Below are positions 43,529-63,055 of a stretch of 64,000 bases of DNA, piece after piece. A model generated the notes under the pieces. It was not told the origin of the DNA. It worked only from the letters and a program-made list of their open reading frames with translations, and ran no database searches. Made by a program: the position numbers and the translations under genes. Each line of letters opens with the position of its first letter. The first letter of the stretch is position 1. Origin of the DNA: Candidatus Heimdallarchaeota archaeon (GTDB taxonomy: Archaea; Asgardarchaeota; Heimdallarchaeia; Heimdallarchaeales; Heimdallarchaeaceae); NCBI GenBank assembly GCA_030668825.1, contig DAOVET010000001.1:1-64000 (forward strand), read 5' to 3'.

Positions 43529-44056
43529 GTGTCAAAGAAAACATATCTTACTAACAAAATAGTTCTTATTGGTGACGCAAGAGTGGGAAAAACCTCACTT
43601 GTTCGAAGATTCGTATCAAATATGTTTGATCCATCTTACAAGATTACTTTAGGTACAACAATAATGAAAAAAGTAGTTGATTACCTTTCTTACAATGTGA
43701 CACTAGCGATCTGGGACGTAGGCGGCCAGGAGGTTTTTCGTCAAATAAGAAGCAAATATTTCTTTGGAAGTAAAGGTGCTTTAGCTATTTGTGATGCTTC
43801 CAACCTTGATTCTTTCAAGAATCTTTCTTCCTGGATTGCTTCTTTCAGTAACGAAGTTGGCGATAAACCTATCATTTTTTTAGCCAATAAATGTGATCTT
43901 AAGAATCAAGTTGTTTCTGAAGACCACTTAAAACAACTTGTTCAAGATACTCCTAAATCTGAATTCATGTTTACTTCTGCTAAAGATGGTACTAACACTG
44001 AAAAAGCCTTTATCGACCTCACTCGTCTCATGGTTGCTGAAGAAGATATTATTTAA
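43529..44056 (+). CDS. Rab-like small GTPase
   Basis: GDARVGKTS, switch I YKITLG, WDVGGQ, NKCDL, TSAK; no C-terminal prenylation Cys. Confidence 0.93.
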   Translation: MSKKTYLTNKIVLIGDARVGKTSLVRRFVSNMFDPSYKITLGTTIMKKVVDYLSYNVTLAIWDVGGQEVFRQIRSKYFFGSKGALAICDASNLDSFKNLSSWIASFSNEVGDKPIIFLANKCDLKNQVVSEDHLKQLVQDTPKSEFMFTSAKDGTNTEKAFIDLTRLMVAEEDII

Positions 44057-44057
44057 T

Positions 44058-45056
44058 TTATTCATGTTTTACTTTGTTATGCTTTTTTAGATATTCTTCT
44101 AATTTTTCTATTTTCTCTAGAAATCCTCTCTTCTTTTCCTCTTCTCTTTCCTCTCCCCTTAGATAAACATTCGGAAAACTTTCTTTTGTTTCTTTTATTA
44201 TTTTCTCGTATGGTAAATCTACTTCTTCTTCAATATACATTCTTATTTTTCCTGTTAGTGTGTCTAATATTGGTTCCACTTTGTTATAATCCAATACCCA
44301 CTGCAAGTATTTTGCTCTTCTTAAATCTGCTATTATTTCCCTACAGATATTTCTCAGTTTCTTCTTATTTGCTTGTTGTTTTTTCTTTTTCCTATATATC
44401 TCATCTAACATTACTGCTCTTATTATTCTTTCATTTACTATGTGTTCACATTCCCCATATTCTCTTTCACTTAGCGTATCTCCTAAATCATAACAAAAAG
44501 TTAAATCATCCAACATTGAGATAAAGATTATCAATTTCCTTGCAATTACACTTGTTTCATCCTTTACATCCACTCTTTGTTTTAGATTTTCATAAAATTG
44601 AACCAGTGTCCTCAGAATATCTCTTACAGTTTCTTCTTGTTGTTTTTTTTCAAACCTTCTTCCTTCTTTATTAAAATGCTTCAAATATATGCCTACCACA
44701 ATACTAAACAGTATTTCTATTTCTGGATACTTTTGTATAAAATTCCCAGATTGTATTTTCATTTTTACACTGTTAGTTAATTTCTCAATTCTCTTATTAT
44801 AATCGTCTTTCTTCTCTAATCCATATAATTCCAGTAATTCATTCTGAGCATCATTAGAAAGAATTTTTTCTGCTGTTTTAAAAAATTGGAATTCTTGTTC
44901 AATAATTGTAATGAGTTCTAAAAAATCCCAATTAAAATATCCTGTAGAAAAATAATCAATTTTTGTATATTGATGAGATACATTGTACTTTTCATCATTA
45001 ATCATGATAAAATCCAGAAATTCTTGAATTATCTGTGATTCTTGGACTTTGTTCAT
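44058..45056 (-). CDS. Hypothetical helical protein
   Basis: 332-aa K/E-rich ORF with no recognised motif. Confidence 0.6.
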   Translation of the reverse strand: MNKVQESQIIQEFLDFIMINDEKYNVSHQYTKIDYFSTGYFNWDFLELITIIEQEFQFFKTAEKILSNDAQNELLELYGLEKKDDYNKRIEKLTNSVKMKIQSGNFIQKYPEIEILFSIVVGIYLKHFNKEGRRFEKKQQEETVRDILRTLVQFYENLKQRVDVKDETSVIARKLIIFISMLDDLTFCYDLGDTLSEREYGECEHIVNERIIRAVMLDEIYRKKKKQQANKKKLRNICREIIADLRRAKYLQWVLDYNKVEPILDTLTGKIRMYIEEEVDLPYEKIIKETKESFPNVYLRGEEREEEKKRGFLEKIEKLEEYLKKHNKVKHE

Positions 45057-45150
45057 TTTCCTCTTTCCTTGTAATAATATTCATATTCTATAGATTTAAG
45101 CTTTCTGTGGCAAAAAAAGAGTGGAGGAGTGAAAATGACTCACCATTTCT

Positions 45151-45573
45151 TCAATTTAGGAAGTGCCAATTTGTAGTAATCCATTTGAAGAAATCTCGTA
45201 TCTTTGCTTTTTCTGGGAACGAGAAAACTAGATTTAGTGCTTCTATTTTGATTTCATTGATTAACTTTGATAACCAATTCCCACCATCACCTAATGAGTA
45301 TACACCTCTAGTGCTTTCCCATCCTGGAATAATTCTACCTGAAGTTTTCTGTTGTCCAAATCTTATGTTTATTTCTACATCATTTATACGTATATTCCCA
45401 TTCCAATCAATATCAATACGAGAAATACGATTGTTTGCTTGAATTGTACCAAAACTTATCCCATCTGGATAGAGCGAAATTTCTCTTCTTAAATATTGCA
45501 TTGCATCATCACAGTTTCTCTGATAATCTGCTAATATAAGAGCGAAAAGCTTCATCATTTCATCACAATTCAT
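45151..45573 (-). CDS. Hypothetical protein
   Basis: 140-aa ORF. Confidence 0.55.
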   Translation of the reverse strand: MNCDEMMKLFALILADYQRNCDDAMQYLRREISLYPDGISFGTIQANNRISRIDIDWNGNIRINDVEINIRFGQQKTSGRIIPGWESTRGVYSLGDGGNWLSKLINEIKIEALNLVFSFPEKAKIRDFFKWITTNWHFLN

Positions 45574-45628
45574 TCTTTTTAAACAAATAAGTTATAAAAA
45601 ATTATTATCTTAATATAAAGAGGATTTG

Positions 45629-46225
45629 TTAGTCTTTTTGAAAACGATTGTAAATAGGCTTCAAAAGAGGAACAAATAAGAGAAGAGAAAGCATCATAAA
45701 AGAAGTTGAATCTGGATTTGGACGCAGTTCAAACAAAACCAACCATGCCGAACTATGGTCTTCATCTGTCGCTAGTGGTATGTTTTCTGTAAAAGTTAAT
45801 AGGCAACGAACATTACAAGTCCCCCAATTTGAATTATAATTAATAGTTAGGTCTTGTGTAATATAGCTACCAACAGTTGTGAATTCCTCGCTATAGGTTT
45901 TTGTTTCAATGTTACCAATTGTATAAATATCTATAGTTAAACCTATGTTTTTTATTCCTTGTACATTGCTTCCAAGCGCTCCAAGTTCTATAATGATTTT
46001 ACCTTCCGCTTTCTGATTATGATTCAGAGAAACATCATCAAAAGAAGGCTTAATTAAAATCTCTGTCCCACGAGTGGTTGTTACAGTATGTACTTCAAAG
46101 GTAAGCGCAGAAGGATATGAAACAGCTGAGAAAATAAATAGTAAGCCAATGAACAGAATTTTAATCTTTTTATTCAAATGTAATTCACCGCAAATACAAA
46201 GGAAGTAAATATATTTAAAGTGCAC
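45629..46225 (-). CDS. Secreted protein with a C-terminal membrane anchor
   Basis: Signal-peptide-like KKIKILFIGLLFIFSAVS and a C-terminal hydrophobic helix with basic tail; the real start is probably downstream of the called one. Confidence 0.6.
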   Translation of the reverse strand: MHFKYIYFLCICGELHLNKKIKILFIGLLFIFSAVSYPSALTFEVHTVTTTRGTEILIKPSFDDVSLNHNQKAEGKIIIELGALGSNVQGIKNIGLTIDIYTIGNIETKTYSEEFTTVGSYITQDLTINYNSNWGTCNVRCLLTFTENIPLATDEDHSSAWLVLFELRPNPDSTSFMMLSLLLFVPLLKPIYNRFQKD

Positions 46226-46242
46226 TATAAGTTACTTTACAT

Positions 46243-46476
46243 ATGCGAATGAGTAACGAAGGTAAAATCATTTTCAATCACATGGGAATAGAATATAGAG
46301 AATGCATAATAGAACAATGTATGTGGAACGTCAATTGGGAAGAACTACGATTGGCAGAAGAGACAGCGGGAAGACCTCTACCAAAAAAATTCGAGGGAAG
46401 GGTGTGTAATTGTGTTCCAGAGAATCCTATAGGTATTTTAGAAGCTTCTAAAGTACGATGCAATCCAGAAGGTTAA
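46243..46476 (+). CDS. Small Cys-rich hypothetical protein
   Basis: 77 aa with C-x4-C...CNC...C. Confidence 0.45.
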   Translation: MRMSNEGKIIFNHMGIEYRECIIEQCMWNVNWEELRLAEETAGRPLPKKFEGRVCNCVPENPIGILEASKVRCNPEG

Positions 46477-46514
46477 AAAGGTTAATTATCAACTGTAGAA
46501 TTCATTTTCTATCT

Positions 46515-46751
46515 TTATATAAAATCTTCTAATCCTAATTGTTTCTTCGGTCTCATAAAATCCTTCAGTTCCTTATCCTTTTGGTCAATGAACCATTGTT
46601 TGATGAGCTTGGTTTCAGGATCAACAACAGACTTAGGTATCCAGATAGGATTATCAACAAAACCATCAATAAGAGCTAGAAAGGCTTTCTCTGTCTCAAT
46701 ATCTACTTTACCTAACTTAAAGTCTGAATACTTACTCCGATTCTCGTCCAT
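46515..46751 (-). CDS. Small virus-like hypothetical protein
   Basis: ETEKAFL...IWIPKS pattern recalls small beta-barrel phage proteins. Confidence 0.5.
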   Translation of the reverse strand: MDENRSKYSDFKLGKVDIETEKAFLALIDGFVDNPIWIPKSVVDPETKLIKQWFIDQKDKELKDFMRPKKQLGLEDFI

Positions 46752-46905
46752 ATTAAAAAGAAAGAGGAGATTTCAGTTTATAATGATAGAGCAAAGATGT
46801 ATATTAAGTTGGATATTTTTTCTCCTTTTTGCATTTACTTGAATAATCTAAACAAATAACTTTATTGTATTCAATTTCCAATATCTTAGATATTATGGGA
46901 AATTT

Positions 46906-47559
46906 CTATCTCTTGTTTGAATTTTTCTTTCGGATTGCGAAAATCACAGTACATATCAACAAAATGGATAATAGTGGTAATGCAAAAGAAACATTTGTTT
47001 GTTCAGTAGGATAATAGTCAAATTCAATGTAAGTGACATTCATATTACCTGAATTCATCTTTATTAAAGCAGGTAGTTCTAGAGTAGTTATGTTATTTAC
47101 AAAATAACCTGTATTTATTGGTCTCCAGAGAGTATAATTTCCATCCTCGGGTTGAGATAAACCCGATTGATTAATATAAAATTTCACGTAACTATGTTCA
47201 ACAGTGATTCCTGGAGCATAAGAATAGTGCATTATTGTTGCATGAGCTATCATCAATGGATCAATTACCAGTGTTTGGTTACTAAGGGTTGCATTTATGA
47301 AGACTTTAGGATAAAAATCTGATAACTCAACTACTGTTTGATTTTCCTCAGCTCTATTCAGAATTTCTACAGTAACACCGATACCAAATAGAGTAGAATT
47401 TGGTTTATTATATAGATTAGTAATTACAGCAATTTCACTAACTTCTGATACTCTTGAAGCAATAACAGGAAGATTACCAGAAACTGATAAATTGATTGAA
47501 GAAACACATATGTATGCAATTAATATTAAAGTAAGATATTTTCCTAGTGGTTTAATCAT
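46906..47559 (-). CDS. Secreted, C-terminally anchored surface protein
   Basis: Signal peptide, many N-x-S/T sequons, C-terminal TM followed by RKK. Confidence 0.65.
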   Translation of the reverse strand: MIKPLGKYLTLILIAYICVSSINLSVSGNLPVIASRVSEVSEIAVITNLYNKPNSTLFGIGVTVEILNRAEENQTVVELSDFYPKVFINATLSNQTLVIDPLMIAHATIMHYSYAPGITVEHSYVKFYINQSGLSQPEDGNYTLWRPINTGYFVNNITTLELPALIKMNSGNMNVTYIEFDYYPTEQTNVSFALPLLSILLICTVIFAIRKKNSNKR

Positions 47560-47628
47560 ACTTTTTCCTCCATTTAATCTTTTTAGCAGACGTACCTAAT
47601 TAAAGTTAAGTACGAGGTTTAATAATTC

Positions 47629-48825
47629 TTACCTTGCTAGTCTCCCCTCCGTATATGCCTTTCCAAATGCTAAATAAGCATCTATATATCCATATCCAAA
47701 TTTTTGATCAAAAGTGCTTCGCGAACTAGCATAGTATAAGATATCCAAAACTTTCTGGAGAGAAGGGTCAGTAGAAGAACCTATTCCATTGTGATAAGCT
47801 GTTATTATCAAAGCAATTGTTGCAGCCAAATAGGGAGTACTAAAACTGGTTCCAGCTCCATATTTCCAAATACCTCTATAGATTCCAAGTGATTGATCAT
47901 AATATGCATCCGTTAATATAGGTATACCATTCCCTGGTTCTACCCAGTTTACAATATGATTACCTGTAGTATAAGATTTATACCAAGATGAAAACCAGGA
48001 TTTATGATGTATCCATGAGTCGCTTCGATCTTCATGATCTATTGAACCAACAGCATACCACTCAGAGTAATATGATTGATACATGTAATTATAACCCCAA
48101 CGGTAATTAAGATAATTGTAATAGTTACCAGCTGCTGTAAGTAACATCACATTTTTAGTAATCAAACTTGCCCATTTTTGATGGATTGTTGTATCTTCAG
48201 TAAAATCAATTCTTGAGACCCAAGACCATGAAACTATATCGATATCCTTTGATGCTTGATTATCATCTATCCATTCCCAAATTTCATATTGTCCATAAGT
48301 AAATCCATAGGGATCATATAACTCTTCCTCTTCATTTTCCACATATAAATCGATAAAAATGACTTTTACATCTCTGGCGATGGAAGCTAGTACAGATATA
48401 ACTGCAAATCCATGTCCATGAAACACTTGATTGTCTAGAAATGGATCATTAGGATTAGTAATGAATTTTATTTCATTATAACATCTGAAATCGTTTGTTA
48501 AGAACCCAACAATATCCACATTCGCTTCAGGATTTTGTTCTAAAGCTTTCCATTCCAAATCAGTTAAACCATCATCAATTATTACGACAGTAACATAATC
48601 ATCTATAGTAACTCCATGCTCATACACAATTACATCTGTTTCTGTATACTTATATGCTGCATCTTGAAGATTTCCAACTTTTACTGCTGGATTTATAACA
48701 GGATCACCAATTGCTCCGCATTTTAACCAATCTAACATTTTGAGTTGATTATTACACATATCAGGTAAAGGTGCCAATCCAATACATACTATCAAGCAAA
48801 AGGAAAGAATTTTTTCATATTTCAT
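47629..48825 (-). CDS. Secreted subtilisin-like (S8) serine protease
   Basis: Catalytic triad VVIIDDG / HGHGFAV / GTSFSTP, oxyanion AAGN, FGYGYID; signal peptide. Confidence 0.88.
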   Translation of the reverse strand: MKYEKILSFCLIVCIGLAPLPDMCNNQLKMLDWLKCGAIGDPVINPAVKVGNLQDAAYKYTETDVIVYEHGVTIDDYVTVVIIDDGLTDLEWKALEQNPEANVDIVGFLTNDFRCYNEIKFITNPNDPFLDNQVFHGHGFAVISVLASIARDVKVIFIDLYVENEEEELYDPYGFTYGQYEIWEWIDDNQASKDIDIVSWSWVSRIDFTEDTTIHQKWASLITKNVMLLTAAGNYYNYLNYRWGYNYMYQSYYSEWYAVGSIDHEDRSDSWIHHKSWFSSWYKSYTTGNHIVNWVEPGNGIPILTDAYYDQSLGIYRGIWKYGAGTSFSTPYLAATIALIITAYHNGIGSSTDPSLQKVLDILYYASSRSTFDQKFGYGYIDAYLAFGKAYTEGRLAR

Positions 48826-49044
48826 TATTCTTGACTCCTAGATAGTAATTTTATCAAATTCTAGATCCTCTTGTTTCCTTAAAAACCTGTCTTATTTTCA
48901 GATGCTGCAAATGTGTCGTAAATTTCCAATATTCTTTCTTTCATTTCTTTCAATGTTGTTTTTACCACCTTTATAAATCAAACTCCTGATAATAGTTCAC
49001 CTACACTCCTTGTTTTACATCCCACTGAAAGTAAAAAAGGATAG

Positions 49045-49599
49045 TTGGTGAAAGAAGTGGGTAAGAACATGTATACAAGATTAAAAGAAGAAGTAAAGAA
49101 ATATCTCTCCTCTTTTAAAAGGTTTCAAGAAGAACTACAATCATTTAAAGAATTTAGAAGAAGTATTGATTTACCATCAGAGATGACAATAGATCTATCG
49201 GAAACTAAGGACCAGATGGAAGCTATTAGAAGATATGAAGCAAGATTACAGAAAGGAAAAGATGATCCAACTTGGTTTACTCTCACTAAGATGGTTACTG
49301 ATGTTTTTTTCGAGATGAAAAAAGAGTTTGAGGTATTCATGCAAGAACCTCAGTTTCTAGAAGGTAGAAAGTGTAAAAATCTAGTTGATTTAACTACTTA
49401 TGTAGTTGGAGAATTACAAGAACTAGAAGTTAAGCTTTACTCCAAACACATGGATGAAGTAGATTGTTCTGTTTGTAACCAAAGTCATCTTATTCTTGAT
49501 GAGAATAGAGCAGAACAGACATGTAAAAACTGTGGCATAGTAATTAGAGATAAGATATCCGAAGAGGAAATTAGTCTTAAATCACAACCTTTTTTCTGA
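49045..49599 (+). CDS. Coiled-coil protein with a C-terminal TFIIB-type zinc ribbon
   Basis: CSVCNQSHLILDENRAEQTCKNCGIVI matches the TFB Zn-ribbon pattern; likely start ATG 49069. Confidence 0.65.
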   Translation: MVKEVGKNMYTRLKEEVKKYLSSFKRFQEELQSFKEFRRSIDLPSEMTIDLSETKDQMEAIRRYEARLQKGKDDPTWFTLTKMVTDVFFEMKKEFEVFMQEPQFLEGRKCKNLVDLTTYVVGELQELEVKLYSKHMDEVDCSVCNQSHLILDENRAEQTCKNCGIVIRDKISEEEISLKSQPFF

Positions 49600-49663
49600 T
49601 AAAAACTTAAAAAGGATAAGGATAAATTCTACTAATCTTAATTATTACTTAAATAACGAATAT

Positions 49664-50242
49664 TTGGATGGAAAAATAATGACTATTGATGGTTATGATT
49701 TACAGGATGGTTTTACTAGAAATTATCATTCCTTTCAATTGACAGGAGAGCATACAAATACTACTTGGACACATAGAATCCTCGGTTACTTTGATAGACT
49801 GGGGAGAATGCTAGGATACGAAGTACAATTTGAAAAAGAAATATATGATTTAACTTGGTGGGATTATTCAATTAATCAAGAAAAAGGGAAGATTATTCTC
49901 CATGTCGAACATGAAAATTCAACAAATAAGAATAAGATAATCGAAGAAACTTTAGAATACAAAATTCTAGATTCTGAAGCAAAAATAGCTCTTGCTATCT
50001 GTTATCCTAATAATTCTCAAGATTTTGATGAAATTAAACTTTGGATTAAAAAGAATGTTAAAAAACGAATGAAAGCAGAAGAAGTAGCCATCATAGTAGA
50101 TGGTTGTTGTTATGGAGAAGAACCATATCATTTTGCAGTTCACATGATTACGAAAAAGAAATCAGAACTATACCTTTATGACAAAATAACAGTAAATGAA
50201 TATCATTGCTTAGAGTATAAGACAGAAGAAAATTACGCGTGA
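49664..50242 (+). CDS. Putative PD-(D/E)XK-fold nuclease
   Basis: YDLTWWD...LHVEHEN pattern (D...ExE variant). Confidence 0.55.
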   Translation: MDGKIMTIDGYDLQDGFTRNYHSFQLTGEHTNTTWTHRILGYFDRLGRMLGYEVQFEKEIYDLTWWDYSINQEKGKIILHVEHENSTNKNKIIEETLEYKILDSEAKIALAICYPNNSQDFDEIKLWIKKNVKKRMKAEEVAIIVDGCCYGEEPYHFAVHMITKKKSELYLYDKITVNEYHCLEYKTEENYA

Positions 50243-50271
50243 TGGACGTATCGTGTAAAATTGTGAATTAT

Positions 50272-50499
50272 TCATTGATTTTGTATTCTCGCTTTTATTT
50301 TTTTTGTTTCTTCTTCAGATAAAATCTTATCTCTCTTCCCTAAACTACATTCTTTGCATGTTGTTGCTAGATTGTCTAGTGAATGTTCTTTTACTATTGA
50401 CCAAGGTATAATATGGTCAACTTGTAATTCAACTTCTGGAGCTGAACGACCACAAATTATACAAGAAAAATTATCTCGTTGTAGAACCTCAAATCTCAA
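50272..50499 (-). CDS. HNH endonuclease domain, possibly the C-terminus of an interrupted TM-HNH fusion
   Basis: LRFEVLQRDNFSCIICG...VDHIIP...NLATTCKECS; in frame with the upstream ORF across one TAA. Confidence 0.8.
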   Translation of the reverse strand: MRFEVLQRDNFSCIICGRSAPEVELQVDHIIPWSIVKEHSLDNLATTCKECSLGKRDKILSEEETKKIKARIQNQ

Positions 50500-50502
50500 A
50501 CT

Positions 50503-55266: not shown

Positions 55267-55665
55267 TTTGCTCTATTTTGCTTATCAGAACTTTGGTTTA
55301 TAAAGTAGGGAAAGTTTTTTTCTCGAGTTTTTAAATCAATTTACAGATTAGTGGTTGAAGCTGGCACAAACCCTTGAAATTCATATATCTAAAAAATATA
55401 ACTCATCACACTTTAGCTGGCTTCGACCCACTCTTTTCTTCTCTCAATCTCCTTCATCAGTTACTTATGGAAGCAAAATTAAAAATCTGGGTTTTAGATT
55501 GATAAAATAGAGAAAATTAGTGAATTTTTCAACCTTCCTCTCAAACACCTGAAAAAAATAGACTTCTAACTTATCTCACATTTAGTATTTCTATATCCTT
55601 ATTTTATTTCGATAGAGGAAAATCAAAAATGCAAAAATCAAACAAACTATTCTTGTTCAAGTATA

Positions 55666-57333
55666 CTATCTTCTTCTTTTAGAACTAAATCGGGAATAAC
55701 CAAATACAATTAGTGGGATTAGTACAATTAAAGAAAGAAACGAGTAGTAAATATTATTATTCCTATAAACTGGAGGTTCAGAAAGAGGATAAAGATCTTG
55801 TGCATTTGCAAATCCATCAATATAATAGCTACCAACTACCACAAAATAGTCTGACCAATAATTTCCTTCCTCATTTTCTTCATCATACCAGAGATTATCT
55901 CCATCATCTCTCGCTTGGGAAGTACCGTAATACTGGTTGTTATTGTAAAAGGAATTATGGTGAACAAGATTGTTGACTGAATCTTCATCTAAAAATACTC
56001 CCCAAAAATAATTATTAGTTAAAGTATTGTAAGTAATAGAGATATTTGATGAGTTTTCAAGCACTAACCCATGATTATTATTGCTTAAAATATTATTTTC
56101 GATTAATGAATTACTTGTTTGCACAAGTAGAATCCCTTGTTTTTTATTGAAACTACAGTTATTGTTCATGATGGTTATTCTATCACTAAATTTAACATGT
56201 ATTCCTATTAATGTTTGATCCAAGACTTGATTTTTTATCATGAATTCAGAGCAATTGGAAATAAATAGCTGACCATAGATTGGTTTTGTTATTTTCAAAT
56301 TATTTTGGTTTGTAAAATAACCGTACTCTTTTCCATTTATCATATTGTTGTACACTGTGTAAGTATGATAATCTGCTGGATTTAATTCGTAAAAATAATA
56401 GTCACACTCTGTTAATGTATTCCCAATAAATTCAGAAAATTCTGAATCCCTTACATATATACCATTAGACTCGGTAGTAATTTCATTATTTATAACAGAG
56501 ACATTTCCACTATATACTACTGTTAATCCTATTCCTCCTCCAAAACAGTAATTGTCTGTTACTACAGAATCATTTGAATGAGATAATCGAATGTTAAACT
56601 GAACATTATTGAAACAAGAGTTATTTGCAACTAAAGCTGCTCTAGATGTATGAAGATATATCCCTCCTAAATAAGAATTGTTATGAAGAGAATTGCTAAC
56701 AACGGTAGCGAAGAAACTGCTACCAAGAAGTAATCCTCCTTTGAAATTATCTGAAATATTATTACCATAGATATAACTAGAATTACAATTATTAAGGAAA
56801 ATACCTCCTTCATTACTCTTTGTACATGTATTATTTACGATTCTAATATTTGGTGAAAATATTACATGGATACCATAGCGTAAACCTTCATTACATGTAT
56901 TTTTGATGAGCTCTATACCTTCTGCTTTACTGATCTCCATCCCAGATTTTTGATAATTCTGACACAAATTTTCCTTAATTTTGATACTGTTAGGTGCTAC
57001 ATTTAGAATATAGATACTGTAGTTATCACCATCCAGAAAACAATTTTGGATCAGGAAGCATTTGGTAGTATAAGATATTGATATACACGCTTCTTCGGTT
57101 GTAGTAATGTTAAGATTCTCTATACGGTAAGGATCTACAGCTGTTCCTTCTCCTGGTAAGCTGTAAAGAGAGATATTGGTATCAGATTGTATGACAATAG
57201 GTATCGAGATTATATATGAATTAGAATTTAAATTTCCACTATCTGTGGTAGCTGTAGTAATTTCTATACTCCAACTTTTCATTAGAATTAAACTGAAACA
57301 CACCACTACTAGTAACCCTTTCTGATATTTCAT
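55666..57333 (-). CDS. Cell-surface parallel beta-helix (NosD/CASH) protein
   Basis: Signal peptide, GEGTAVDPYRIENL, repeated I.NN.C..N..GI.L units, GNYWSDY, DLYPL, C-terminal TM plus basic tail. Confidence 0.85.
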   Translation of the reverse strand: MKYQKGLLVVVCFSLILMKSWSIEITTATTDSGNLNSNSYIISIPIVIQSDTNISLYSLPGEGTAVDPYRIENLNITTTEEACISISYTTKCFLIQNCFLDGDNYSIYILNVAPNSIKIKENLCQNYQKSGMEISKAEGIELIKNTCNEGLRYGIHVIFSPNIRIVNNTCTKSNEGGIFLNNCNSSYIYGNNISDNFKGGLLLGSSFFATVVSNSLHNNSYLGGIYLHTSRAALVANNSCFNNVQFNIRLSHSNDSVVTDNYCFGGGIGLTVVYSGNVSVINNEITTESNGIYVRDSEFSEFIGNTLTECDYYFYELNPADYHTYTVYNNMINGKEYGYFTNQNNLKITKPIYGQLFISNCSEFMIKNQVLDQTLIGIHVKFSDRITIMNNNCSFNKKQGILLVQTSNSLIENNILSNNNHGLVLENSSNISITYNTLTNNYFWGVFLDEDSVNNLVHHNSFYNNNQYYGTSQARDDGDNLWYDEENEEGNYWSDYFVVVGSYYIDGFANAQDLYPLSEPPVYRNNNIYYSFLSLIVLIPLIVFGYSRFSSKRRR

Positions 57334-57387
57334 TTTATCACTCTTGTTTTATCTTCTAAATCTCACTTATTCACAATTTATTCTGAA

Positions 57388-59109
57388 TTATCTCAATTTC
57401 TTTTCTTGATTATTGAATCTTTTTTTCCTAATTGTTATTTGGAAATAACCATAAATCATCAGAGGAATAATAACAGCAAACGAGAAAAAAGCATAGTAAA
57501 TATTCTTATTTCTATAAACTGGGTGTTCAGAAAGAGGATAAGGATCTACAACACCAGCAAAACCGTCTATACTGTAGTTTCCAACTCCTGAATAGTCTTC
57601 CCAGTAGTTCCCCTCCTCTTTTTTCTCATCATACCAGAGATTATCTCCATCATCTTTTGCTTGGGATGTACCATAGAAGTTGTTGTTTATGAAAACGTTA
57701 TGGTGTATTGAGTTATTAGCAGAACCACCACCTAATACCACTCCCCATAATCCGCTATTTGTTATCACATTGTATGTGATCTCATTGTATGAGGATTGCT
57801 CTAATAAGATTCCATACAACCCATTATATTCTGAAGTGTTGTTAATTATATTCACTCGTTCAGATTTAAATAAATAGACTCCACTTCTGCTATTAAACTT
57901 GAAAACTGATTTTGAAATAGATATGTCCTCGCAATAATATAGACTTACTCCTGTAGAAAAACTACTTATCAACTGGTTCTTAATTTTGATGTTATTACAA
58001 TTTACAAGATGTAACTGATTAAAGATTGCTTCTGAAAGAGTAAGGTCATTTTCATCAACAAAATACCCGAAAAGTTTGTCATTAACGTAATTGGAAGTTA
58101 CGTAGTACTTCCTGAAATCTTCCACAGTTGATTCGTATATTCTAAACCCACAATCATAAAGCATATTATTGCTGATTATTGAGTATTCCGCATCCTTTAG
58201 ATATATACCTGTATTACTCCCTGCACAGATATTGTCAGAAACAGTCACGTTACCGCCTAAAACAACAATAATCCCATATATTTCACCAGAACAAATGTTT
58301 CTTGTTACTAAAGAGAAATTTGAGCTGTGGATATCTAAATTAGGTTGCCGATTATTATAACAGATATTATCAGAAACTGTCGATGTATAACACCTAAGTA
58401 ATCTTATCCCTCCATGTAAATCATTTAAGTAACAGCGATTATGCATAATAAGAGAATTCGTACAATCATCCAACACAATCCCTCCTTTTTTATTCTCATA
58501 ACAAGTATTGTTTTTAACTATGCTTTCAGAACTTTTATCTATAAACATCCCGACCCAGCTGTTATCAAAACAAGTATTAAGCTCGATTTGACAATTTGGT
58601 GAATCTTTGATATGTATACCAAAATAGCTATTTGAGTAACAGGTGTTATTAATTATCAGTGAGTTTGATGAATTATAAATACGAATTCCTCGTATAGAAT
58701 TACCAATACAAATGTTGTTTTCAATTTTTGCAGTTTCATTTTTAACTGATTCTATTACAATACCATTTACAGATGCGTTTACAAAACAATTTTGAATTAG
58801 AAAGTGTTTAGTTGTATTGTAAACATAAATTCCCCTTTCTTTTGTTGTAGTTATATTGAGATTTTCAATTATGAAAGGATTTACAGCTGTTCCATCACCT
58901 AGAAATCCATAATCTGTGAAATTAGAGTCATTTGTAATAACGATTGGTAATGAGTCAATATAGGAAAGAAAAGGTTGATAAGCTTCTTTAGAAGGAAATC
59001 TATAACATGTATTCTGAAATTCAGTTTCTTTAGATTCTACTGAGGTAAACATTGACAGTAACAAAATACAAAAAATTGTAACTGTTACATTCTTTCTCAT
59101 ATAACCCAT
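57388..59109 (-). CDS. Cell-surface parallel beta-helix (NosD/CASH) protein, tandem paralogue
   Basis: Same architecture; shares YGTSQAxDDGDNLWYDE..EEGNYW and YPLSE.PVYRN with the neighbour. Confidence 0.85.
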   Translation of the reverse strand: MGYMRKNVTVTIFCILLLSMFTSVESKETEFQNTCYRFPSKEAYQPFLSYIDSLPIVITNDSNFTDYGFLGDGTAVNPFIIENLNITTTKERGIYVYNTTKHFLIQNCFVNASVNGIVIESVKNETAKIENNICIGNSIRGIRIYNSSNSLIINNTCYSNSYFGIHIKDSPNCQIELNTCFDNSWVGMFIDKSSESIVKNNTCYENKKGGIVLDDCTNSLIMHNRCYLNDLHGGIRLLRCYTSTVSDNICYNNRQPNLDIHSSNFSLVTRNICSGEIYGIIVVLGGNVTVSDNICAGSNTGIYLKDAEYSIISNNMLYDCGFRIYESTVEDFRKYYVTSNYVNDKLFGYFVDENDLTLSEAIFNQLHLVNCNNIKIKNQLISSFSTGVSLYYCEDISISKSVFKFNSRSGVYLFKSERVNIINNTSEYNGLYGILLEQSSYNEITYNVITNSGLWGVVLGGGSANNSIHHNVFINNNFYGTSQAKDDGDNLWYDEKKEEGNYWEDYSGVGNYSIDGFAGVVDPYPLSEHPVYRNKNIYYAFFSFAVIIPLMIYGYFQITIRKKRFNNQEKKLR

Positions 59110-59273
59110 GCAAAATCCTCTTCACTCAAAATAAGGCAGATATTAATTTTTAAAGATTTTGACTGCATTTTAATTAATTTCCTTTTTCGAATACTATTAT
59201 AAGTGTTTAAGATATATTATTCTAGATAAAAAGACGGTTCAAACATATAGAAGACTTATCTAAAGGTGAAAGA

Positions 59274-60725
59274 TTGAAAACCAAATTCAAAGTGGCTATA
59301 ATTGCCGGAGCAATAATAGGGCTCGTAAGTATAACTATCCCTACTGTTTTTTTTCTAATACAACCTCCAGAGATAACCAATGGTAATAATGACAATAAGA
59401 GTATTGATAATGTTATTTACCCAAATCCGCTTTTTTACCGAGGAACAATTTCAGATATGATGCTTGAAAGTGACGACAGAGTACAGTTTATTGTAGGTAG
59501 CTATAATGCCACCTATGTCACCTATCCTCATTCACCTGCTTATATAATTTTAGATCACAAAAATCAAACGTGTACATATAAAGAGATGTTCCCAGGAATT
59601 ACTTCAGGAAATATGCATCAACTAAAAATAGGTTTAGGTCCAAATAATGAGTCAATTGCTTATAATTTTTTTACCAATCCTTTCGGTTATCTAGTGGCAT
59701 ACTTGTACAAAACAAATACTCTTGGGAGATGGATATTCTATCCTGCACTTTCTGATAAACCCATGCCTTACGGTGGTTTTAATAGGAGAAGTGTGTATAA
59801 CTGGAATTTTATGCCTTCAGGAAAAATAAATCTCGCTTTCTTATATCAAGGAACTTATAATACACCTGCAATCTATAATGAAACAACAGATAGTTTTTTC
59901 TTCTTGAGCGATGTTTTTGAGGAAATTAAAGATCAAGTAATTCTTAACAGGTATGGAGACTTTGCAGTTGTAGATTCAAATATTTTCTACTTTTGGTCAG
60001 AATATATAAATGAGTACAACTTTCATCCTTATCTAGCTATTAAATGGCAGGGAGAAGGATGGCAACTAACAAGAATAGGAAATGAATCAGAAACATATAT
60101 GCCCATCAGTATTATTCCTCAGAAAAATGTAGTGAATATTTTTTATCATGATTCTGGTAAAAGCAGTTTGAATAGTAGACTCTATCACACCCAGATTTAT
60201 AATTCTACTAGTAATACTACAACACTTCTACACCAATTTGATGGGAGAACTGTTTTTCGTCAAGATTCTGTATGTGCTCTCTCTCAAAATGAGTATGTGT
60301 TCTTGTATACTAAAGGGTCGTATGTACTAAATGCACAAAGAGATCTGTTTATGGGTTATTATGATGGTAAAGAATTCTATGAATTTATGCTTACAGATAC
60401 TCCACAACTTCTTGAACATCGAGCACATTGTGAATTAGGGGAGAATTACATTCATTTGGCTTGGGAAACTAGTATAGACAAAGGAACTGGAATCTATGAC
60501 CCAATGCAGACTAATCTTTTCTATAATAGAATATCCTTAAAGGAAATAAGACTGTCAAAAGAAACTGTTATAATACCATCAATGATAACCATAAAGAATG
60601 AAAACCATAGAACAAAGCTCTTTAACGATTGGACTTTCTTAAAACTTACTATCTATATTGCTCTGTCCATCAAAATCCTTTTTTTTCCAGTAAAATTCTT
60701 GTGTGAGATACAGGGATTCTTATGA
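59274..60725 (+). CDS. Membrane-anchored extracellular beta-rich protein
   Basis: N-terminal TM, beta-propeller-like composition, C-terminal hydrophobic stretch. Confidence 0.6.
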   Translation: MKTKFKVAIIAGAIIGLVSITIPTVFFLIQPPEITNGNNDNKSIDNVIYPNPLFYRGTISDMMLESDDRVQFIVGSYNATYVTYPHSPAYIILDHKNQTCTYKEMFPGITSGNMHQLKIGLGPNNESIAYNFFTNPFGYLVAYLYKTNTLGRWIFYPALSDKPMPYGGFNRRSVYNWNFMPSGKINLAFLYQGTYNTPAIYNETTDSFFFLSDVFEEIKDQVILNRYGDFAVVDSNIFYFWSEYINEYNFHPYLAIKWQGEGWQLTRIGNESETYMPISIIPQKNVVNIFYHDSGKSSLNSRLYHTQIYNSTSNTTTLLHQFDGRTVFRQDSVCALSQNEYVFLYTKGSYVLNAQRDLFMGYYDGKEFYEFMLTDTPQLLEHRAHCELGENYIHLAWETSIDKGTGIYDPMQTNLFYNRISLKEIRLSKETVIIPSMITIKNENHRTKLFNDWTFLKLTIYIALSIKILFFPVKFLCEIQGFL

Positions 60726-62417
60726 AATTATTATTGTTTTCATTAAATTGGTTTGAACTAAGAAATATTCAGGGTCTGTATTGTCGTTATAACAAGTGAG
60801 CACAAAATTAATTGTAGAATCTACAATAAATGAAGTGTTGAGAAAACCTCTAATTTGATAATTACCTGATTTTTGGAGCACAAAAGAGTAACCTCGTGAT
60901 CTATTTAAGATTAAGTATTCCAATTGCGGTTCTTCTGCAATGATTTCAATATAACTAAATAATCTAAATGTGTCAAATAACAAATTATTGTCACTATCTA
61001 TAACTATAGAATCGACTCTAATAATATCTGCACGCATAAAATCTGGAACATTGTGGTAAATATATTGGAAATTAATTTCCATTACAAAAGTAGAATTTTC
61101 ATATAATTCTACTTCTTTAATCGTTATTGATGAATTACTAGACCAATTCATACCATAAGCATCAGCAATTTCAAAGTTGTTGACAGTCCAACCATCACAA
61201 ACTTCTTCTCCTTGGATGATCAAATTACTAGGAAGCCCTAGAACTAAAATTATTAGAATAAAGGAGATTGCTTTTTCAATTTTTATCTTTTTGGAATAAT
61301 TAATTGGAACGATTTTATCCACTTCTTTAACAATCTTATCCTCTTCTTCAGTCTGATCAGTTTTTTTTCTCATTTTTAGTTTATGTATTAGAAATAGCAA
61401 ACTCGAAGATAGTATCAATGGAATTATAAATAATAAAAGAACCATAATAAAACCTGCTAGAAATTCGCTTGAAATTGCAGAAATGTCCAAATTGAGATAT
61501 GATTCTAGAATAAGGGATAAGAGTAAATTGTGAAATAACAAATCGCTCCAGAAAAATATTGTAAACAAGGTTATAGCTATAAAAAATATACTAGCTATCG
61601 AAAGTGAAATAATTTTAATTTTTCGTGATTTTGCTATTAAAGGTTCCTTAATCTTGCTTTGTAGTTTTGAAAGTATTAAAAAGATCCCACTTGTCACAAA
61701 AATATAAGCTAAGTAGATACCCAAAGGACCAACTTTTCCAGTAATAGGTAAAGTAAAAAGACAAGCAGAACCGAACATTCCAACTAAGCTAAAAGTATAA
61801 ATCCCATAGAATGGAATAAATGCAATTGTTTGATCAACTAGTTCTTCTTTACTATTTGTCCCCTTATGTTCACTTGAGCTCCTTGTTTTTTTCGTAGAAA
61901 TAATTAAGATCACCCCTTTTAGAAACAACAATAAAGGAGTAATAAATATTAAGAACAAGAAAAGAACATTCAAATTATTAGTATAACTATTTGCTCCACC
62001 AAGAAACATTATAGCTCCCCCTGCCCCATGAGACGAGTATTGTATGTGAGCTATTAGTCTTACTAGCTCATCTATATGATATATTGCGAAAAAAACACTA
62101 AATAATCCCACTTTTCTTGGGTAGAGTCTAGAGAGAAGGAAACCAGTGAGTACAAGAATTGCACTTAATATATAATTGGCTAAAGTGTTTTTTTCATTTG
62201 AAATATATGCGTCTATCTCGACCCAATTATATTCTATTGTTCCATTAGCTGAAGATATATCCTGAATTTGAATCGTTTGATCATATAGTGTTAACTTTGA
62301 TACTCTTATAGTTGCAATAAGTATAAAACCAACAATTATCAAAACAGAGAGTATTAAAACAATATAATCCCAACATTTATTCTTGGAAATGTAAAAATGC
62401 ATTCTTGTTTTCCTCAT
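60720..62417 (-). CDS. Polytopic membrane protein with a C-terminal extracellular domain
   Basis: About 9-10 hydrophobic segments. Confidence 0.65.
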   Translation of the reverse strand: MRKTRMHFYISKNKCWDYIVLILSVLIIVGFILIATIRVSKLTLYDQTIQIQDISSANGTIEYNWVEIDAYISNEKNTLANYILSAILVLTGFLLSRLYPRKVGLFSVFFAIYHIDELVRLIAHIQYSSHGAGGAIMFLGGANSYTNNLNVLFLFLIFITPLLLFLKGVILIISTKKTRSSSEHKGTNSKEELVDQTIAFIPFYGIYTFSLVGMFGSACLFTLPITGKVGPLGIYLAYIFVTSGIFLILSKLQSKIKEPLIAKSRKIKIISLSIASIFFIAITLFTIFFWSDLLFHNLLLSLILESYLNLDISAISSEFLAGFIMVLLLFIIPLILSSSLLFLIHKLKMRKKTDQTEEEDKIVKEVDKIVPINYSKKIKIEKAISFILIILVLGLPSNLIIQGEEVCDGWTVNNFEIADAYGMNWSSNSSITIKEVELYENSTFVMEINFQYIYHNVPDFMRADIIRVDSIVIDSDNNLLFDTFRLFSYIEIIAEEPQLEYLILNRSRGYSFVLQKSGNYQIRGFLNTSFIVDSTINFVLTCYNDNTDPEYFLVQTNLMKTIIIS

Positions 62418-62585
62418 TCTTGATTAGATGTTATAAGTACAAACGCGCTCTTAAAAATTCTTTGGAACATTGCTATAGCGCAAAACATAGAATCCATTTT
62501 ATCATTCTCGCCCTTCAAATTATCATAAAACTAGTGGAGTAGCAATGATATATGAAATTCTATCTTTTTACAAGTAATATAAATT

Positions 62586-62712
62586 GACACCGGTGGACAG
62601 GGGATGTTTACCTATCTCCGTCCCAAATACTACTCTTGACATCCCTGTTATCATCTGCGGTAACAAATTTGACCTTAACGAAGCTCGTACTCTTGATAAA
62701 GATACTATTTAA
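62586..62712 (+). pseudogene. Fragment of a different Rab-like GTPase (G3 and G4 pieces)
   Basis: 62586-62636 reads DTGGQGMFTYLRPKYYS; 62638-62712 in another frame reads DIPVIICGNKFDLNEARTLDKDTI*. Confidence 0.75.
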
Positions 62713-62725
62713 ATTATATTCGTCT

Positions 62726-63055
62726 CAAGAAGTTTTCAGACAAATCAGAAGTAAATATTTCTTTGGAAGCAAAGGTGCTTTAGCTATTTGTGATGCCTCT
62801 AATTCTGAATCTTTTAAGAATATCCCCTCGTGGGTTGAATCTTTTAAAAAGGAAGTGGGAGATAAGCCTATCATTTTTCTAGCAAATAAATGTGATTTGA
62901 AGGATCAACAAGTCACTGAGGATGACATGAAACAATTGGTTAAGGATTACAGTAACACTGAATATCTGTATTCCTCTGCAAAAGATGGAACAAATGCTGA
63001 AAAAGCTTTCATCAACTTAACCAGACTTATGGTTGCTGAAGAAGATATAGTATAG
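62726..63055 (+). pseudogene. Displaced 3' half of the Rab-like GTPase gene
   Basis: QEVFRQIRSKYFFGSKGALAICD...MVAEEDIV aligns without gaps to aa 67-175 of 43529-44056 (about 84/109 identical by hand count); no G1/G2 upstream. Confidence 0.9.

What the first reader, a model, noticed from the sequence alone, without database searches (positions are those of the whole stretch)
43529..63055. ~19 kb island inserted at the G3 motif of a Rab-like GTPase gene, with the gene's 3' half replaced
Seen: 43727-44056 and 62726-63055 are both 330 nt, both start at the Gln codon of G3 (WDVGG|Q) and align without gaps. By hand count about 84/109 aa are identical, with many synonymous changes. The right copy has no 5' half but no internal stop. 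It uses AGA/GGA codons, while the left copy has more CGT/CTC/GGC codons. The DNA between them is orphan, defence and surface cargo. Established: some integrative elements insert in a CDS and restore it with their own diverged 3' segment (e.g. e14/phage 21 in icd). Inference: the right copy is the original host 3' half and the expressed gene is a host/element chimera. An element targeting a conserved motif of the expanded Asgard small-GTPase family would shuffle the C-terminal halves of eukaryote-signature proteins. No recombinase is visible, so the mechanism is unknown.
Basis: partly seen in the sequence, partly recalled or inferred. Interest (0 to 1): 0.9.

Follow-up and report, generated by a model that had tools for sequence, protein, structure and literature searches.

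The report
GTPase gene split by inserted island
A Heimdall-group archaeon has about 19 kb of foreign DNA inserted into a small GTPase gene, and the insert brought a foreign replacement for the gene's back half, so the gene stays whole while its original back half sits unused downstream; the joints look like DNA-repair scars, not the work of a dedicated mobile element.

Summary
The gene at 43529-44056 is an intact 175-aa Ras-family GTPase ("Y"). 62726-63055 is a 5'-truncated copy that starts at the G3 Gln codon.

The core inference holds. The right copy is the original host half: it is 98.2% nt identical to an island-free near-identical relative and sits in the ancestral position. The left gene is a chimera. 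Its 5' part is host-like and its 3' part is foreign (75-77% nt identity, dS about 1.5, dN/dS 0.10).

In 13 of 17 same-genus genomes examined, Y abuts a convergent 159-aa gene directly. That is the empty site.

A second paralogue, "X", shows the same architecture in three relatives.

The idea of a G3-targeting element is not supported:
- No recombinase, terminal repeats or shared element ends were found.
- The right joint is an 11-nt microhomology (62725-62735) between a decayed X-type GTPase piece at the island's right end and host Y.
- The X event's right joint is a 9-nt microhomology with a peptidase-gene scrap.
- Two further events broke elsewhere, at G4 and near codon 151.

Best reading: homology-anchored insertion joined by microhomology, the pattern called C-terminal displacement in bacterial Rhs and T6SS loci, here in an Asgard signature GTPase. 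The clustering of joints at G3 stays unexplained.

The parts
41230..42093 (+). Memo-like gene. It is the conserved left neighbour of the GTPase in all relatives examined.
   Evidence: Pfam Memo, E 1.5e-77. Synteny across 20 loci.
42148..43404 (-). TnpB / IS605 OrfB-type gene inserted between Memo and the GTPase. It is not part of the island.
   Evidence: Pfam Cas12f1-like_TNB and OrfB_IS605. Absent in G024, G012 and G013. Present at 96.5-97.6% nt in island-free G009.
43529..44056 (+). Intact chimeric Ras-family GTPase 'Y' (175 aa). The G1 GDARVGKT, G3 DVGGQ, G4 NKCD and G5 SAK motifs are all present.
   Evidence: Translation. Pfam Ras, E 6.5e-37.
43529..43704 (+). Host-derived 5' part of Y. 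The left crossover lies somewhere in 43634-43705.
   Evidence: Codons 32-57 match G009 at 79 of 80 bases. There is no mismatch between 43634 and 43704. The 5' half is 94-96% identical to host-clade genomes.
43705..44056 (+). Foreign (Y') 3' part of the expressed gene.
   Evidence: 18 of 26 bases match G009 in codons 58-66, and 76.1% match from the Gln codon onward. dS to the right copy is 1.5 with dN/dS 0.10. It forms a separate clade with G024's left copy.
44057..62585 (.). Island cargo, 15 ORFs of 120 aa or more:
- 332-aa gene (44058-45056, -)
- 140-aa gene (45151-45573, -)
- secreted or membrane proteins
- S8 peptidase (47629-48825, -)
- TFIIB-type Zn-ribbon protein (49045-49599, +)
- HSDR_N-like protein (51339-51884, +)
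- OLD/GajA-like nuclease (51911-54256, -)
- two NosD/beta-helix proteins (55666-57333 and 57388-59109, -)
- 483-aa gene (59274-60725, +)
- 565-aa membrane protein (60720-62417, -)
   Evidence: ORFs. Pfam. PADLOC Old/GajA. All are absent from the empty locus of relatives. Parts recur in other genomes at other places.
62586..62735 (+). Decayed piece of an X-type GTPase gene of the island-borne X' flavour. It covers aa 74-92, then a deletion, then aa 122-156 with one frameshift.
   Evidence: tblastx and blastn to X genes. Base-level comparison with X genes of G013, G018 and G024. Metagenome contigs that match up to 62709 continue as an intact X' gene (table 7).
62725..62735 (+). Right joint: the 11 bases TCAAGAAGTTT are shared by the X' gene (codons about 153-156) and host Y (codons 66-70).
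   Evidence: The window and G024's X-left gene share the run that leads into and through these 11 bases. Host Y in G009 and G013 carries the same 11 bases.
62726..63055 (+). Original host 3' half of Y (codons 67-175 plus stop). It is displaced, has no 5' half, and its frame is still open.
   Evidence: 98.2% nt identity to G009 and 92-94% to G012, G013 and G018. Inside the host clade. The downstream flank also matches relatives.
63240..64000 (+). Family-5 solute-binding protein gene, which runs on to 65060 on the contig. It is a separate insertion between Y and the 159-aa gene.
   Evidence: Pfam SBP_bac_5. Found at this spot only in G000 and G012:C163 among 17 genomes.

Best explanation
SHOWN. 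About 19 kb of foreign DNA (43705-62735) was inserted at one point in a Ras-family GTPase gene, Y. The insert begins with a diverged orthologous copy of the rest of the gene, so the reading frame continues and an intact chimeric GTPase is encoded. The host's own codons 67-175 are pushed 18.7 kb downstream as a silent orphan.

INFERRED. No dedicated integrase did this. It is a homology-anchored, microhomology-joined recombination or repair event:
1. One DNA end paired with a homologous GTPase gene on incoming or ectopic DNA, just upstream of G3.
2. The donor's 3' gene remainder and whatever lay behind it were copied or ligated in.
3. The far end was joined back to the host gene at a short identical run. 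In G000 this is an 11-nt run between an X-type GTPase piece and host Y.

The outcome matches what is called C-terminal displacement in bacterial Rhs, CdiA and T6SS effector loci.

The same process has hit this gene at least twice more (G024, G001) and a second paralogue, X, at least twice (the shared G013/G018/G024 event, and G023). Both genes border variable regions filled from one shared pool of surface, protease and defence genes. The islands then spread or are lost among close relatives by ordinary homologous recombination.
For: Empty site. In 13 of 17 genomes (20 loci), Y ends about 2-60 nt from a convergent 159-aa gene. G018 shows the same. G009 is 96.5-98.8% identical upstream, shares the same TnpB insertion, and has an undisrupted host-type Y.

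Origin of the two halves. Identities, tree, AU test p 0.028, and dS 1.5 with dN/dS 0.10 between the left 3' half and the right copy, against dS 0.05 between the right copy and G009.

Point insertion. The left foreign tract starts at 43705 and the right copy starts at the equivalent of 43726, so both joints lie within about 20-90 nt of host sequence. The same adjacency of joints is seen for X, where the left tract turns foreign about 10 codons before G3 and the right copy starts at Thr75, and for G023, by reading the sequences.

Microhomology and filler at the right joints.
- G000: TCAAGAAGTTT, preceded by two short pieces of an X' gene.
- X event: ATACAGGTG, shared with a roughly 55-nt scrap of an S8 peptidase gene whose full copy lies in the same island.
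- G023: the remnant starts at CGNKYD, overlapping a Zn-ribbon CIRCGN.

No mobility machinery. Pfam, PHROGs and PADLOC gave no integrase or transposase inside the island. There is no direct or inverted repeat of 11 nt or more at the ends beyond the gene homology.

The island-flanking 332/419-aa protein. This family has 9 members in the protein search. A distant homologue lies in a ribosomal/SecY cluster with no GTPase beside it.

Variable ends. The G000 and G024 Y islands share their left end (332-aa gene, 85% aa). They differ in right-end genes and in joint position, Gln67 against Trp62.

Recurrence at X. X right fragments are 96-98.6% nt identical to island-free G012 and G009. X left 3' parts are 75-79% identical to them. 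The empty X site is seen in 12 genomes.

Mosaic cargo. Pieces of the island lie at 70-97% identity at other loci of other genomes. The 565-aa gene is 89.6% aa identical in distant G011, next to a PFK-like gene.
Against: Three right joints fall within six codons of the G3 Gln (Y in G000, Y in G024, X in the G013 clade). The X' remnant also begins at the G3 Asp. A purely random break and repair process does not predict this. By my own rough estimate, not from a call, the chance is about 0.02 given the first case. A site preference, such as a nuclease or a fragile site, therefore remains possible.

Most island ORFs have no known family, so an unrecognised recombinase cannot be excluded.

The donor was not found. 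No genome or metagenome contig carries the Y' 3' half continuous with its own native 5' half.

No reads were available, only contigs, so excision products could not be looked for properly.

DNA uptake and microhomology-mediated end joining in this uncultured lineage are assumed, not shown.
Confidence: 0.62

Rival explanations
1. A site-specific integrative element, or a homing-type nuclease, recognises the conserved G3/switch II coding sequence of small GTPase genes. It inserts there and carries its own 3' gene half, as e14 and phage 21 do in icd. The recombinase belongs to an unknown family or has been lost.
For: Right joints at Trp62 and Gln67 in Y and at Thr75 in X all lie within the G3 codons. 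The element-borne copies differ from the host at many synonymous sites exactly in G3: 8 of 26 bases in codons 58-66. This resembles a cleavage-resistant allele. The 3' half is restored, as in icd-type elements. Many island ORFs have no known function.
Against: No integrase, transposase or homing-endonuclease domain was found. There is no shared core and there are no repeats. The right ends are scraps of other genes joined at microhomologies. The G024 X island holds only two secreted-protein genes. Right-end content differs between G000 and G024. Other events broke at G4 (G023) and near codon 151 (G001). Only 2 of about 35-40 Ras-family genes per genome are affected.
Confidence: 0.17
2. Campbell-type integration. 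A circular DNA carrying a 5'-truncated GTPase fragment plus cargo integrated by a single homologous crossover, and it can pop out again by recombination between the left and right copies.
For: This gives exactly one intact gene plus one 5'-truncated copy. All three X right fragments share one upstream junction yet follow their hosts' phylogeny, as expected if one founder structure moves by homologous recombination. G024's left copy is mosaic.
Against: In G000 the foreign tract in the left copy starts at least 21 nt upstream of where the right copy begins. A single crossover within the shared homology cannot produce that. In every case examined the right copy is host-like from its first bases, so the crossover would have had to fall at the extreme edge of the homology each time. 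No circle joint was seen, though only contigs could be checked.
Confidence: 0.13
3. Local duplication and decay. Y was duplicated in place, cargo accumulated between the copies, and the right copy lost its 5' half by a random deletion.
For: Both copies are the same paralogue. The next best paralogue is 39% identical.
Against: The right copy is 98% identical to the single gene of G009, while the left 3' half has dS 1.5 to it. The AU test rejects left plus right as sisters. The left 5' half is host-like, so the left gene would have to be half old and half new. The same pattern occurs at paralogue X.
Confidence: 0.03
4. Assembly artefact: the MAG contig joins two strains or two loci wrongly.
For: Contigs of relatives often break near these genes. 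Strain variants are visible at 43738-43768.
Against: Contigs from runs of other studies bridge the right joint and the GTPase/332-aa boundary. G024 was assembled separately and shows the same two joint types.
Confidence: 0.02

Closest known systems
C-terminal displacement with orphan 3' modules in Rhs, CdiA and T6SS effector loci, proposed to arise by homology-facilitated illegitimate recombination. Kirchberger et al. 2017, PMC5361080: passages read with find mode. Jackson et al. 2009 was seen only in that paper's reference list.
   Same: The 5' part is constant and a new 3' part arrives with extra genes. The old 3' part is shifted downstream without its 5' end. The process recurs at the same loci, needs no integrase, and the resulting structures then move by homologous recombination.
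   Different: The gene here is a small regulatory GTPase of an Asgard archaeon, not a polymorphic toxin. The incoming half is an orthologous allele, not a new domain. The cargo is up to 19 kb of surface, protease and defence genes, not an immunity gene.
Homology-facilitated illegitimate recombination in transformable bacteria. Abstract of PMC3240628 seen in a search listing. The primary papers of de Vries and Wackernagel, Prudhomme, and Meier are recalled or seen only as references.
   Same: One joint lies in homologous DNA and the other at a microhomology of a few bases (here 9-11). Foreign DNA is trapped beside a conserved anchor.
   Different: It was shown experimentally in bacteria with short inserts. 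Here it is inferred from sequence in an archaeon. Both joints lie within tens of bases of each other in the host, which fits repair of a local break at least as well.
Integrative elements that insert in a coding sequence and restore it with their own 3' segment, such as e14 and phage 21 in icd
   Same: The insertion lies inside a gene, and a diverged element-borne 3' end keeps the gene intact. The original 3' end remains at the far side.
   Different: Those elements have an integrase, a defined attP with a core identical at both joints, and fixed ends. None of these was found here.
MGE-associated small GTPases in Atabeyarchaeia (Valentin-Alvarado et al. 2024, PMC11529989: passages read with find mode).
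   Same: Small GTPase genes of Asgard archaea are linked to strain-variable, mobile-like regions.
   Different: There, whole Arf-like genes lie inside a variable region. No split gene, 3' replacement or orphan half is described in the passages seen.

Membership tests
Ras-superfamily small GTPase (Pfam PF00071) | Match over the family cut-off with the G1, G3, G4 and G5 motifs | tested here: met
   E 6.5e-37, 127 bits against a cut-off of 21.6. GDARVGKT, DVGGQ, NKCD and SAK are read in the translation. A 'Rab-like' subfamily assignment was not tested.
Integrase-mediated integrative element that restores its target gene (e14/icd type) | Integrase or other recombinase gene in the element | tested here: not met
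   No such domain in any island ORF of 120 aa or more by Pfam, PHROGs or PADLOC, nor in the G013 X island. Limit: most of these ORFs have no family at all.
Integrase-mediated integrative element that restores its target gene (e14/icd type) | Identical core sequence at both joints and fixed element ends in independent insertions | tested here: not met
   No repeat of 11 nt or more between the two ends outside the gene homology. The right ends of G000 and G024 differ in genes and in joint position.
Integrase-mediated integrative element that restores its target gene (e14/icd type) | Element-borne diverged 3' end that keeps the target gene intact | tested here: met
C-terminal displacement / orphan 3' modules (Rhs, CdiA, T6SS effector type) | Conserved 5' part, replaced 3' part, and the old 3' part retained downstream without its 5' end | tested here: met
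   Y in G000 and G024. X in G013, G018 and G024. Shorter remnants in G023 and G001.
C-terminal displacement / orphan 3' modules (Rhs, CdiA, T6SS effector type) | Variable toxin domain with a cognate immunity gene as the exchanged unit | tested here: not met
   The exchanged part is the orthologous G3-to-C-terminus of a GTPase. The cargo is peptidase, beta-helix, membrane and OLD-nuclease genes.
Homology-facilitated illegitimate recombination / microhomology-mediated joining | One joint within homologous sequence and the other at a short microhomology between unrelated positions | tested here: met
   The left joint lies within 43634-43705 in homologous gene sequence. Right joints are an 11-nt run and a 9-nt run.
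Homology-facilitated illegitimate recombination / microhomology-mediated joining | Uptake of linear foreign DNA, or a chromosomal break, as the starting substrate | not testable with these tools
   This needs experiments or population read data. Only contigs were served.
Diversity-generating retroelement (template repeat / variable repeat) | Reverse transcriptase near a 3' variable repeat and its template copy | tested here: not met
   No RT domain in the island. The downstream copy is the ancestral, conserved one. Adenine-specific mismatch bias was not tested.

The most novel reading that the evidence does not exclude
The G3/switch II coding stretch of certain Heimdall-group Ras-like GTPase genes is a preferred entry point for foreign DNA, through a trans-acting nuclease or an intrinsically fragile site. 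The incoming DNA always brings a compatible gene remainder. This would make these eukaryote-signature GTPases both landing pads for surface and defence islands and genes whose effector-facing C-terminal halves are swapped between species. The displaced halves would be kept as silent donors for later gene conversion, as hinted by the mosaic left copy in G024 and by the low dN/dS among orphan copies.
Probability: 0.2. Interest if true: 0.8.

Novelty: new variant of a known kind. Interest (0 to 1): 0.6.

Why it matters
Small GTPases are the most expanded eukaryote-signature family in Asgard archaea. How that family diversifies bears on how the eukaryotic trafficking toolkit arose.

This locus shows a concrete natural route by which the half of a GTPase from switch II to the C-terminus is exchanged between species without ever breaking the gene. 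At the same time, tens of kilobases of accessory genes are imported.

It extends C-terminal displacement, so far described for bacterial polymorphic toxins, to an archaeal regulatory protein. It also shows microhomology-joined gene capture in an uncultured archaeon.

Practically, orphan gene halves and contig breaks at these genes are real biology. Annotators and binning pipelines should expect them.

Tried and rejected

Structure prediction of the 332/419-aa island protein: not accepted, twice, so no fold search was run. The Atlas search on a stored homologue gave only low-scoring look-alikes: feature scores of 0.76 or less, TM 0.25 or less, and a low-confidence model. No recombinase lead emerged.

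Terminal repeats: none of 11 nt or more at the island ends.

Promoter and terminator scan around the right copy: nothing above shuffles worth using.

Donor search: the 25 genomes of the genus and the metagenome scan (5 orthologous contigs among 79 loci) hold no gene whose 3' half is of the left type together with a native 5' half. The donor lineage is unsampled.

RNA: no RNA holder listed, so nothing can be said on expression of either copy.

Excision: no contig joins about 43.7 kb to about 62.7 kb, and no circle joint was seen in 4 runs. These are contigs, which drop rare forms.

Genome-contig scan with the 332-aa family: 4 loci. Three were already known; one distant homologue sits in a housekeeping context.

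TnpB as the agent: rejected. It lies outside the island. G024, which also carries a Y island, lacks it, and island-free G009 has it.

DGR: considered and rejected (no RT; the direction of conservation is wrong).

Literature: find-mode reading of PMC8813620 and PMC11529989 and three full-text searches turned up no description of insertion into an Asgard GTPase gene with 3' replacement. Supplements were not open.

Full report
WHAT IS THERE

The window is contig C20:1-64000 of a 2.76-Mb, 138-contig MAG. Database names of homologous proteins place it in the Heimdall group.

The ORF at 43529-44056 (+) encodes a 175-aa protein with a full Ras-family match (PF00071, E 6.5e-37) and all G motifs. I call it Y.

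62726-63055 is an open 109-codon stretch. It aligns without gaps to codons 67-175 of Y, at 75.8% nt and about 76% aa identity. It has no 5' half. Similarity stops abruptly upstream.

In this genome the right copy is the only strong Ras-family fragment away from a contig end that lacks a P-loop, among 53 HMM domain hits. The next closest paralogue of Y is 39% identical.

WHICH COPY IS ORIGINAL

I fetched the Y locus from 17 genomes of the same genus, 20 loci in all. The order helicase-like gene, winged-helix gene, Memo, Y is conserved in all of them.

In 13 of the 17 genomes, Y is followed within about 2-60 nt by a convergent 159-aa gene (G013, G016, G019, G007, G004, G021, G008, G005, G017, G002, G011, G014, G022). 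In G000 that gene lies at 65116-65595. This is the empty site. G018 shows it too.

The other four genomes differ:
- G012 has the SBP gene at that spot, plus two further partial copies on small contigs.
- G001 has a 1.3-kb insert.
- G020 has a 0.95-kb insert.
- G024 has an island like G000's, split over two contigs.

In G024 the right fragment lies 23 nt from the 159-aa gene, exactly as the intact gene does in G013.

Identities:

| Part of Y in G000 | nt identity to relatives |
|---|---|
| Right copy | 98.2% to G009; 93.9% to G012 and G018; 92.4% to G013 |
| Left 3' half | 75-77% to those genomes; best 81% to G024's left copy |
| Left 5' half | 94-96% to those genomes |

An ML tree of the 3' halves (27 rows) puts both right copies inside the host clade (support 95/94) and both left copies in a separate clade (96/95). 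The AU test rejects left plus right of G000 as one clade (p 0.028).

dS between the left 3' half and the right copy is 1.5 with dN/dS 0.10. That is old divergence under purifying selection, not fast evolution of a fresh duplicate. dS between the right copy and G009 is 0.05.

G009 is almost the pre-insertion state. It is 96.5-98.8% identical through Memo, the same TnpB insertion and Y codons 32-57. Identity then drops to 18 of 26 bases in codons 58-66 and to 76% beyond.

So the expressed gene is host up to somewhere in 43634-43704 and foreign from 43705 at the latest. The right copy is the displaced host half.

THE ASSEMBLY IS SOUND

Twenty public runs from 12 studies hold the stretch or part of it. 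I laid contigs of four runs. X5 record 16 (60962-62797) and X9 record 32 (61563-63039) bridge the right joint. X5 record 9 (43978-45283) bridges the Y stop into the 332-aa gene. G024 shows both joint types independently.

No contig joins the two ends of the island to each other or skips the island. Contigs cannot exclude rare forms.

A SECOND PARALOGUE BEHAVES THE SAME WAY

The stretch just left of the right copy (62586-62735) is a decayed piece of another GTPase, X (195 aa in relatives). X sits in a conserved locus: Cdc48-like gene, 283-aa gene, X, 386-aa gene.

In 12 genomes X is followed by the 386-aa gene after 66-117 nt, by tblastn coordinates (G009, G006, G010, G020, G007, G001, G017, G005, G008, G011, G014, G019).

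Three genomes have islands at X:
- G013: an intact X is followed by a 9.1-kb island and then an X fragment covering aa 74-195, which abuts the 386-aa gene.
- G024: the island is 2.4 kb.
- G018: the two parts lie on two contigs.

The X right fragments are 96-98.6% nt identical to island-free G012 and G009. The 3' parts of the intact X genes are only 75-79% identical to them, while their 5' parts are 90-94.5%. This is the same chimera-plus-orphan structure.

G023 has an intact X followed by a remnant that starts at the G4 motif. G001 has, after its 1.2-kb insert, a remnant of the last roughly 25 codons of Y.

A Ras-family census of G024, G013 and G018 listed 113 matches. It finds strong orphans only for X and Y, four in all, each starting at HMM positions 49-52.

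THE ISLANDS

G000's island carries:
- a 332-aa and a 140-aa gene,
- several secreted or membrane proteins,
- an S8 peptidase,
- a TFIIB-type zinc-ribbon protein,
- an OLD/GajA-like nuclease next to a small HSDR_N-like protein,
- two NosD/beta-helix proteins,
- 483-aa and 565-aa genes.

The X island of G013 begins with full-length versions of the first two. The 419-aa protein has a double zinc ribbon, and the 520-aa protein's C-terminus matches the 140-aa ORF. It also has an S8 peptidase and related secreted proteins.

X and Y islands therefore draw on one gene pool, in varying order. Pieces of the G000 island lie at 70-97% identity at other places in other genomes. The 565-aa gene is 89.6% aa identical in G011, where core proteins are 55-90% identical, and there it sits next to a PFK-like gene.

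The G000 and G024 Y islands share the left end (the 332-aa gene, at 85% aa identity). They have different right-end genes and different joint positions. Their left 3' halves are only 81% identical. G024's is a mosaic: its last roughly 90 nt match G000's at 87 of 90 bases, while the rest is closer to the host type.

Since G000's nearest relative (G009) and G024's nearest (G013) both lack the Y island, these are separate acquisitions or have been heavily reworked.

HOW IT GOT THERE

No integrase, transposase or homing-endonuclease domain was found in either island. There are no terminal repeats.

The 332/419-aa protein next to the chimeric gene belongs to a 9-member family in the protein search. 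A distant member lies among ribosomal-protein and SecY genes. Nothing marks it as a recombinase, though no fold could be predicted.

The joints themselves are informative.

- G000 right joint. The X-type remnant runs on, with one frameshift, into ATTCGTCTCAAGAAGTTT. This matches codons about 151-156 of G024's island-borne X gene exactly. Host Y reads GGAGGTCAAGAAGTTTTCAGA. The two share the 11 bases TCAAGAAGTTT at 62725-62735. The break at the Gln codon is therefore set by a chance run of identity between non-equivalent positions of two paralogues.
- Metagenome evidence. Contigs that match up to 62709 and then continue as an intact X' gene show that the source gene exists in these populations (table 7).
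- X event right joint. The right fragment is preceded by a roughly 55-nt copy of part of an S8 peptidase gene whose full copy lies in the same island. The two meet at ATACAGGTG, the Thr-Gly-Gly codons of G3.
- G023. The remnant begins where a zinc-ribbon CIRCGN overlaps CGNKYD.

Short templated scraps and joints of 9-11 identical bases are hallmarks of microhomology-mediated joining.

In every case the left foreign tract begins only a few to about 30 codons upstream of where the right fragment starts. The host sequence is thus interrupted at essentially one point, with a small loss. This fits two processes:
- a local break whose left end invaded a homologous gene on foreign or ectopic DNA, copied the gene remainder and what lay behind it, and was re-joined to the right end by microhomology;
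- equivalently, homology-facilitated illegitimate recombination of incoming linear DNA.

It does not fit a single homologous crossover with a circle. The foreign tract of the left copy starts upstream of the right copy's start, and the right copies are host-like from their first base.

WHAT REMAINS ODD

Three right joints (Y in G000, Y in G024, X) fall within six codons of the G3 Gln, and the X' remnant also starts at the G3 Asp. My rough estimate, not from a call, is a chance of about 0.02 for two of four further joints to land within five codons of the first.

G3/switch II is the most conserved DNA stretch among these genes. That could favour both homeologous pairing and microhomology. A site-specific agent is not excluded, and I give it 0.17.

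The orphan halves are still open. Among the three X orphans dN/dS is 0.13-0.16. This suggests recent spread into different hosts by homologous recombination, or selection to keep them. I cannot tell which.

COMPARISON WITH WHAT IS KNOWN

The outcome is what is called C-terminal displacement in Rhs, CdiA and T6SS effector loci. [quoted passage not shown]

It differs in the kind of gene, in the orthologous nature of the incoming half, and in the size and type of cargo.

It resembles icd-type integrative elements only in the restored 3' end. The defining integrase, core and fixed ends were tested and not found.

Papers on Asgard mobile elements (PMC8813620 and PMC11529989, find mode) describe tRNA-linked viruses, integrase-bearing elements, and GTPase genes inside variable regions. 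They do not describe this. Their supplements were not open.

VERDICT

The direction of the event and the chimeric gene are confirmed. The "G3-targeting element" idea is not supported and is replaced by recurrent repair-type gene capture. I rate it a new variant of a known kind, with interest 0.6.

Noticed in passing
window 42148-43404 (-): A TnpB / IS605 OrfB-type gene is inserted between Memo and the GTPase. It is shared at 96.5-97.6% nt with island-free G009. It is absent in G024, G012, G013 and the other relatives, where Memo and Y are about 60 nt apart. A TnpB-like fragment also sits between X and the 386-aa gene in G012 (L065:12376-12579).
   Followed up: partly
window 63240-64000 (gene runs to C20:65060): The family-5 solute-binding protein gene lies between Y and the 159-aa gene only in G000 and G012:C163 (93.6% aa) among 17 genomes. 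It is a separate indel at the same spot. The spot downstream of Y also holds unrelated inserts in G001, G020 and G012:C94/C11.
   Followed up: partly
window 43561-43618: Seven mismatches to G009 cluster in Y codons 11-30 (the P-loop region), inside a stretch that is otherwise 97-99% identical. This may be a small gene-conversion patch.
   Followed up: no
window 51339-54256: An OLD/GajA-like ATPase-TOPRIM nuclease (781 aa, - strand) sits next to a 181-aa protein with an HSDR_N / type IIG-like N-terminal match. This is a likely defence module among the island cargo.
   Followed up: partly
window 60720-62516; L055 (G011:C128), L056-L058 (G018): The 565-aa membrane protein gene and 100 nt upstream of it are 89-97% identical in distant G011 (next to a PFK-like gene) and in G018 small contigs. 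This is far above core-gene identity, so the gene moves laterally on its own. Homology ends at 62516 in both.
   Followed up: partly
G000 contigs C3 (5110-5388) and C89 (end): G000's own X locus is not assembled. C3 starts inside X at aa 103 with a host-type 3' part, and C89 ends inside the Cdc48-like gene. G000 may therefore also carry an X island.
   Followed up: no
L024, L025 (G012:C94, C11): G012 holds two extra Y copies that start at contig ends (aa 18 onward, 76-77% to G000). Each has its own 159-aa gene copy and inserts of 0.95 and 5.2 kb (HEAT-repeat-like ORFs). This is probably a second strain or species in the bin.
   Followed up: no
window 43738-43768: Contigs from four runs carry an alternative path with five linked base changes in the first codons of the foreign half. 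More alleles of the left copy are therefore circulating in these sediments.
   Followed up: no
L062 (G016:C91:8256-10380): In G016, homologues of the 140/520-aa and 332/419-aa genes lie next to an X fragment that starts near aa 92, in a different relative orientation from G013. This may be another rearranged X island.
   Followed up: no
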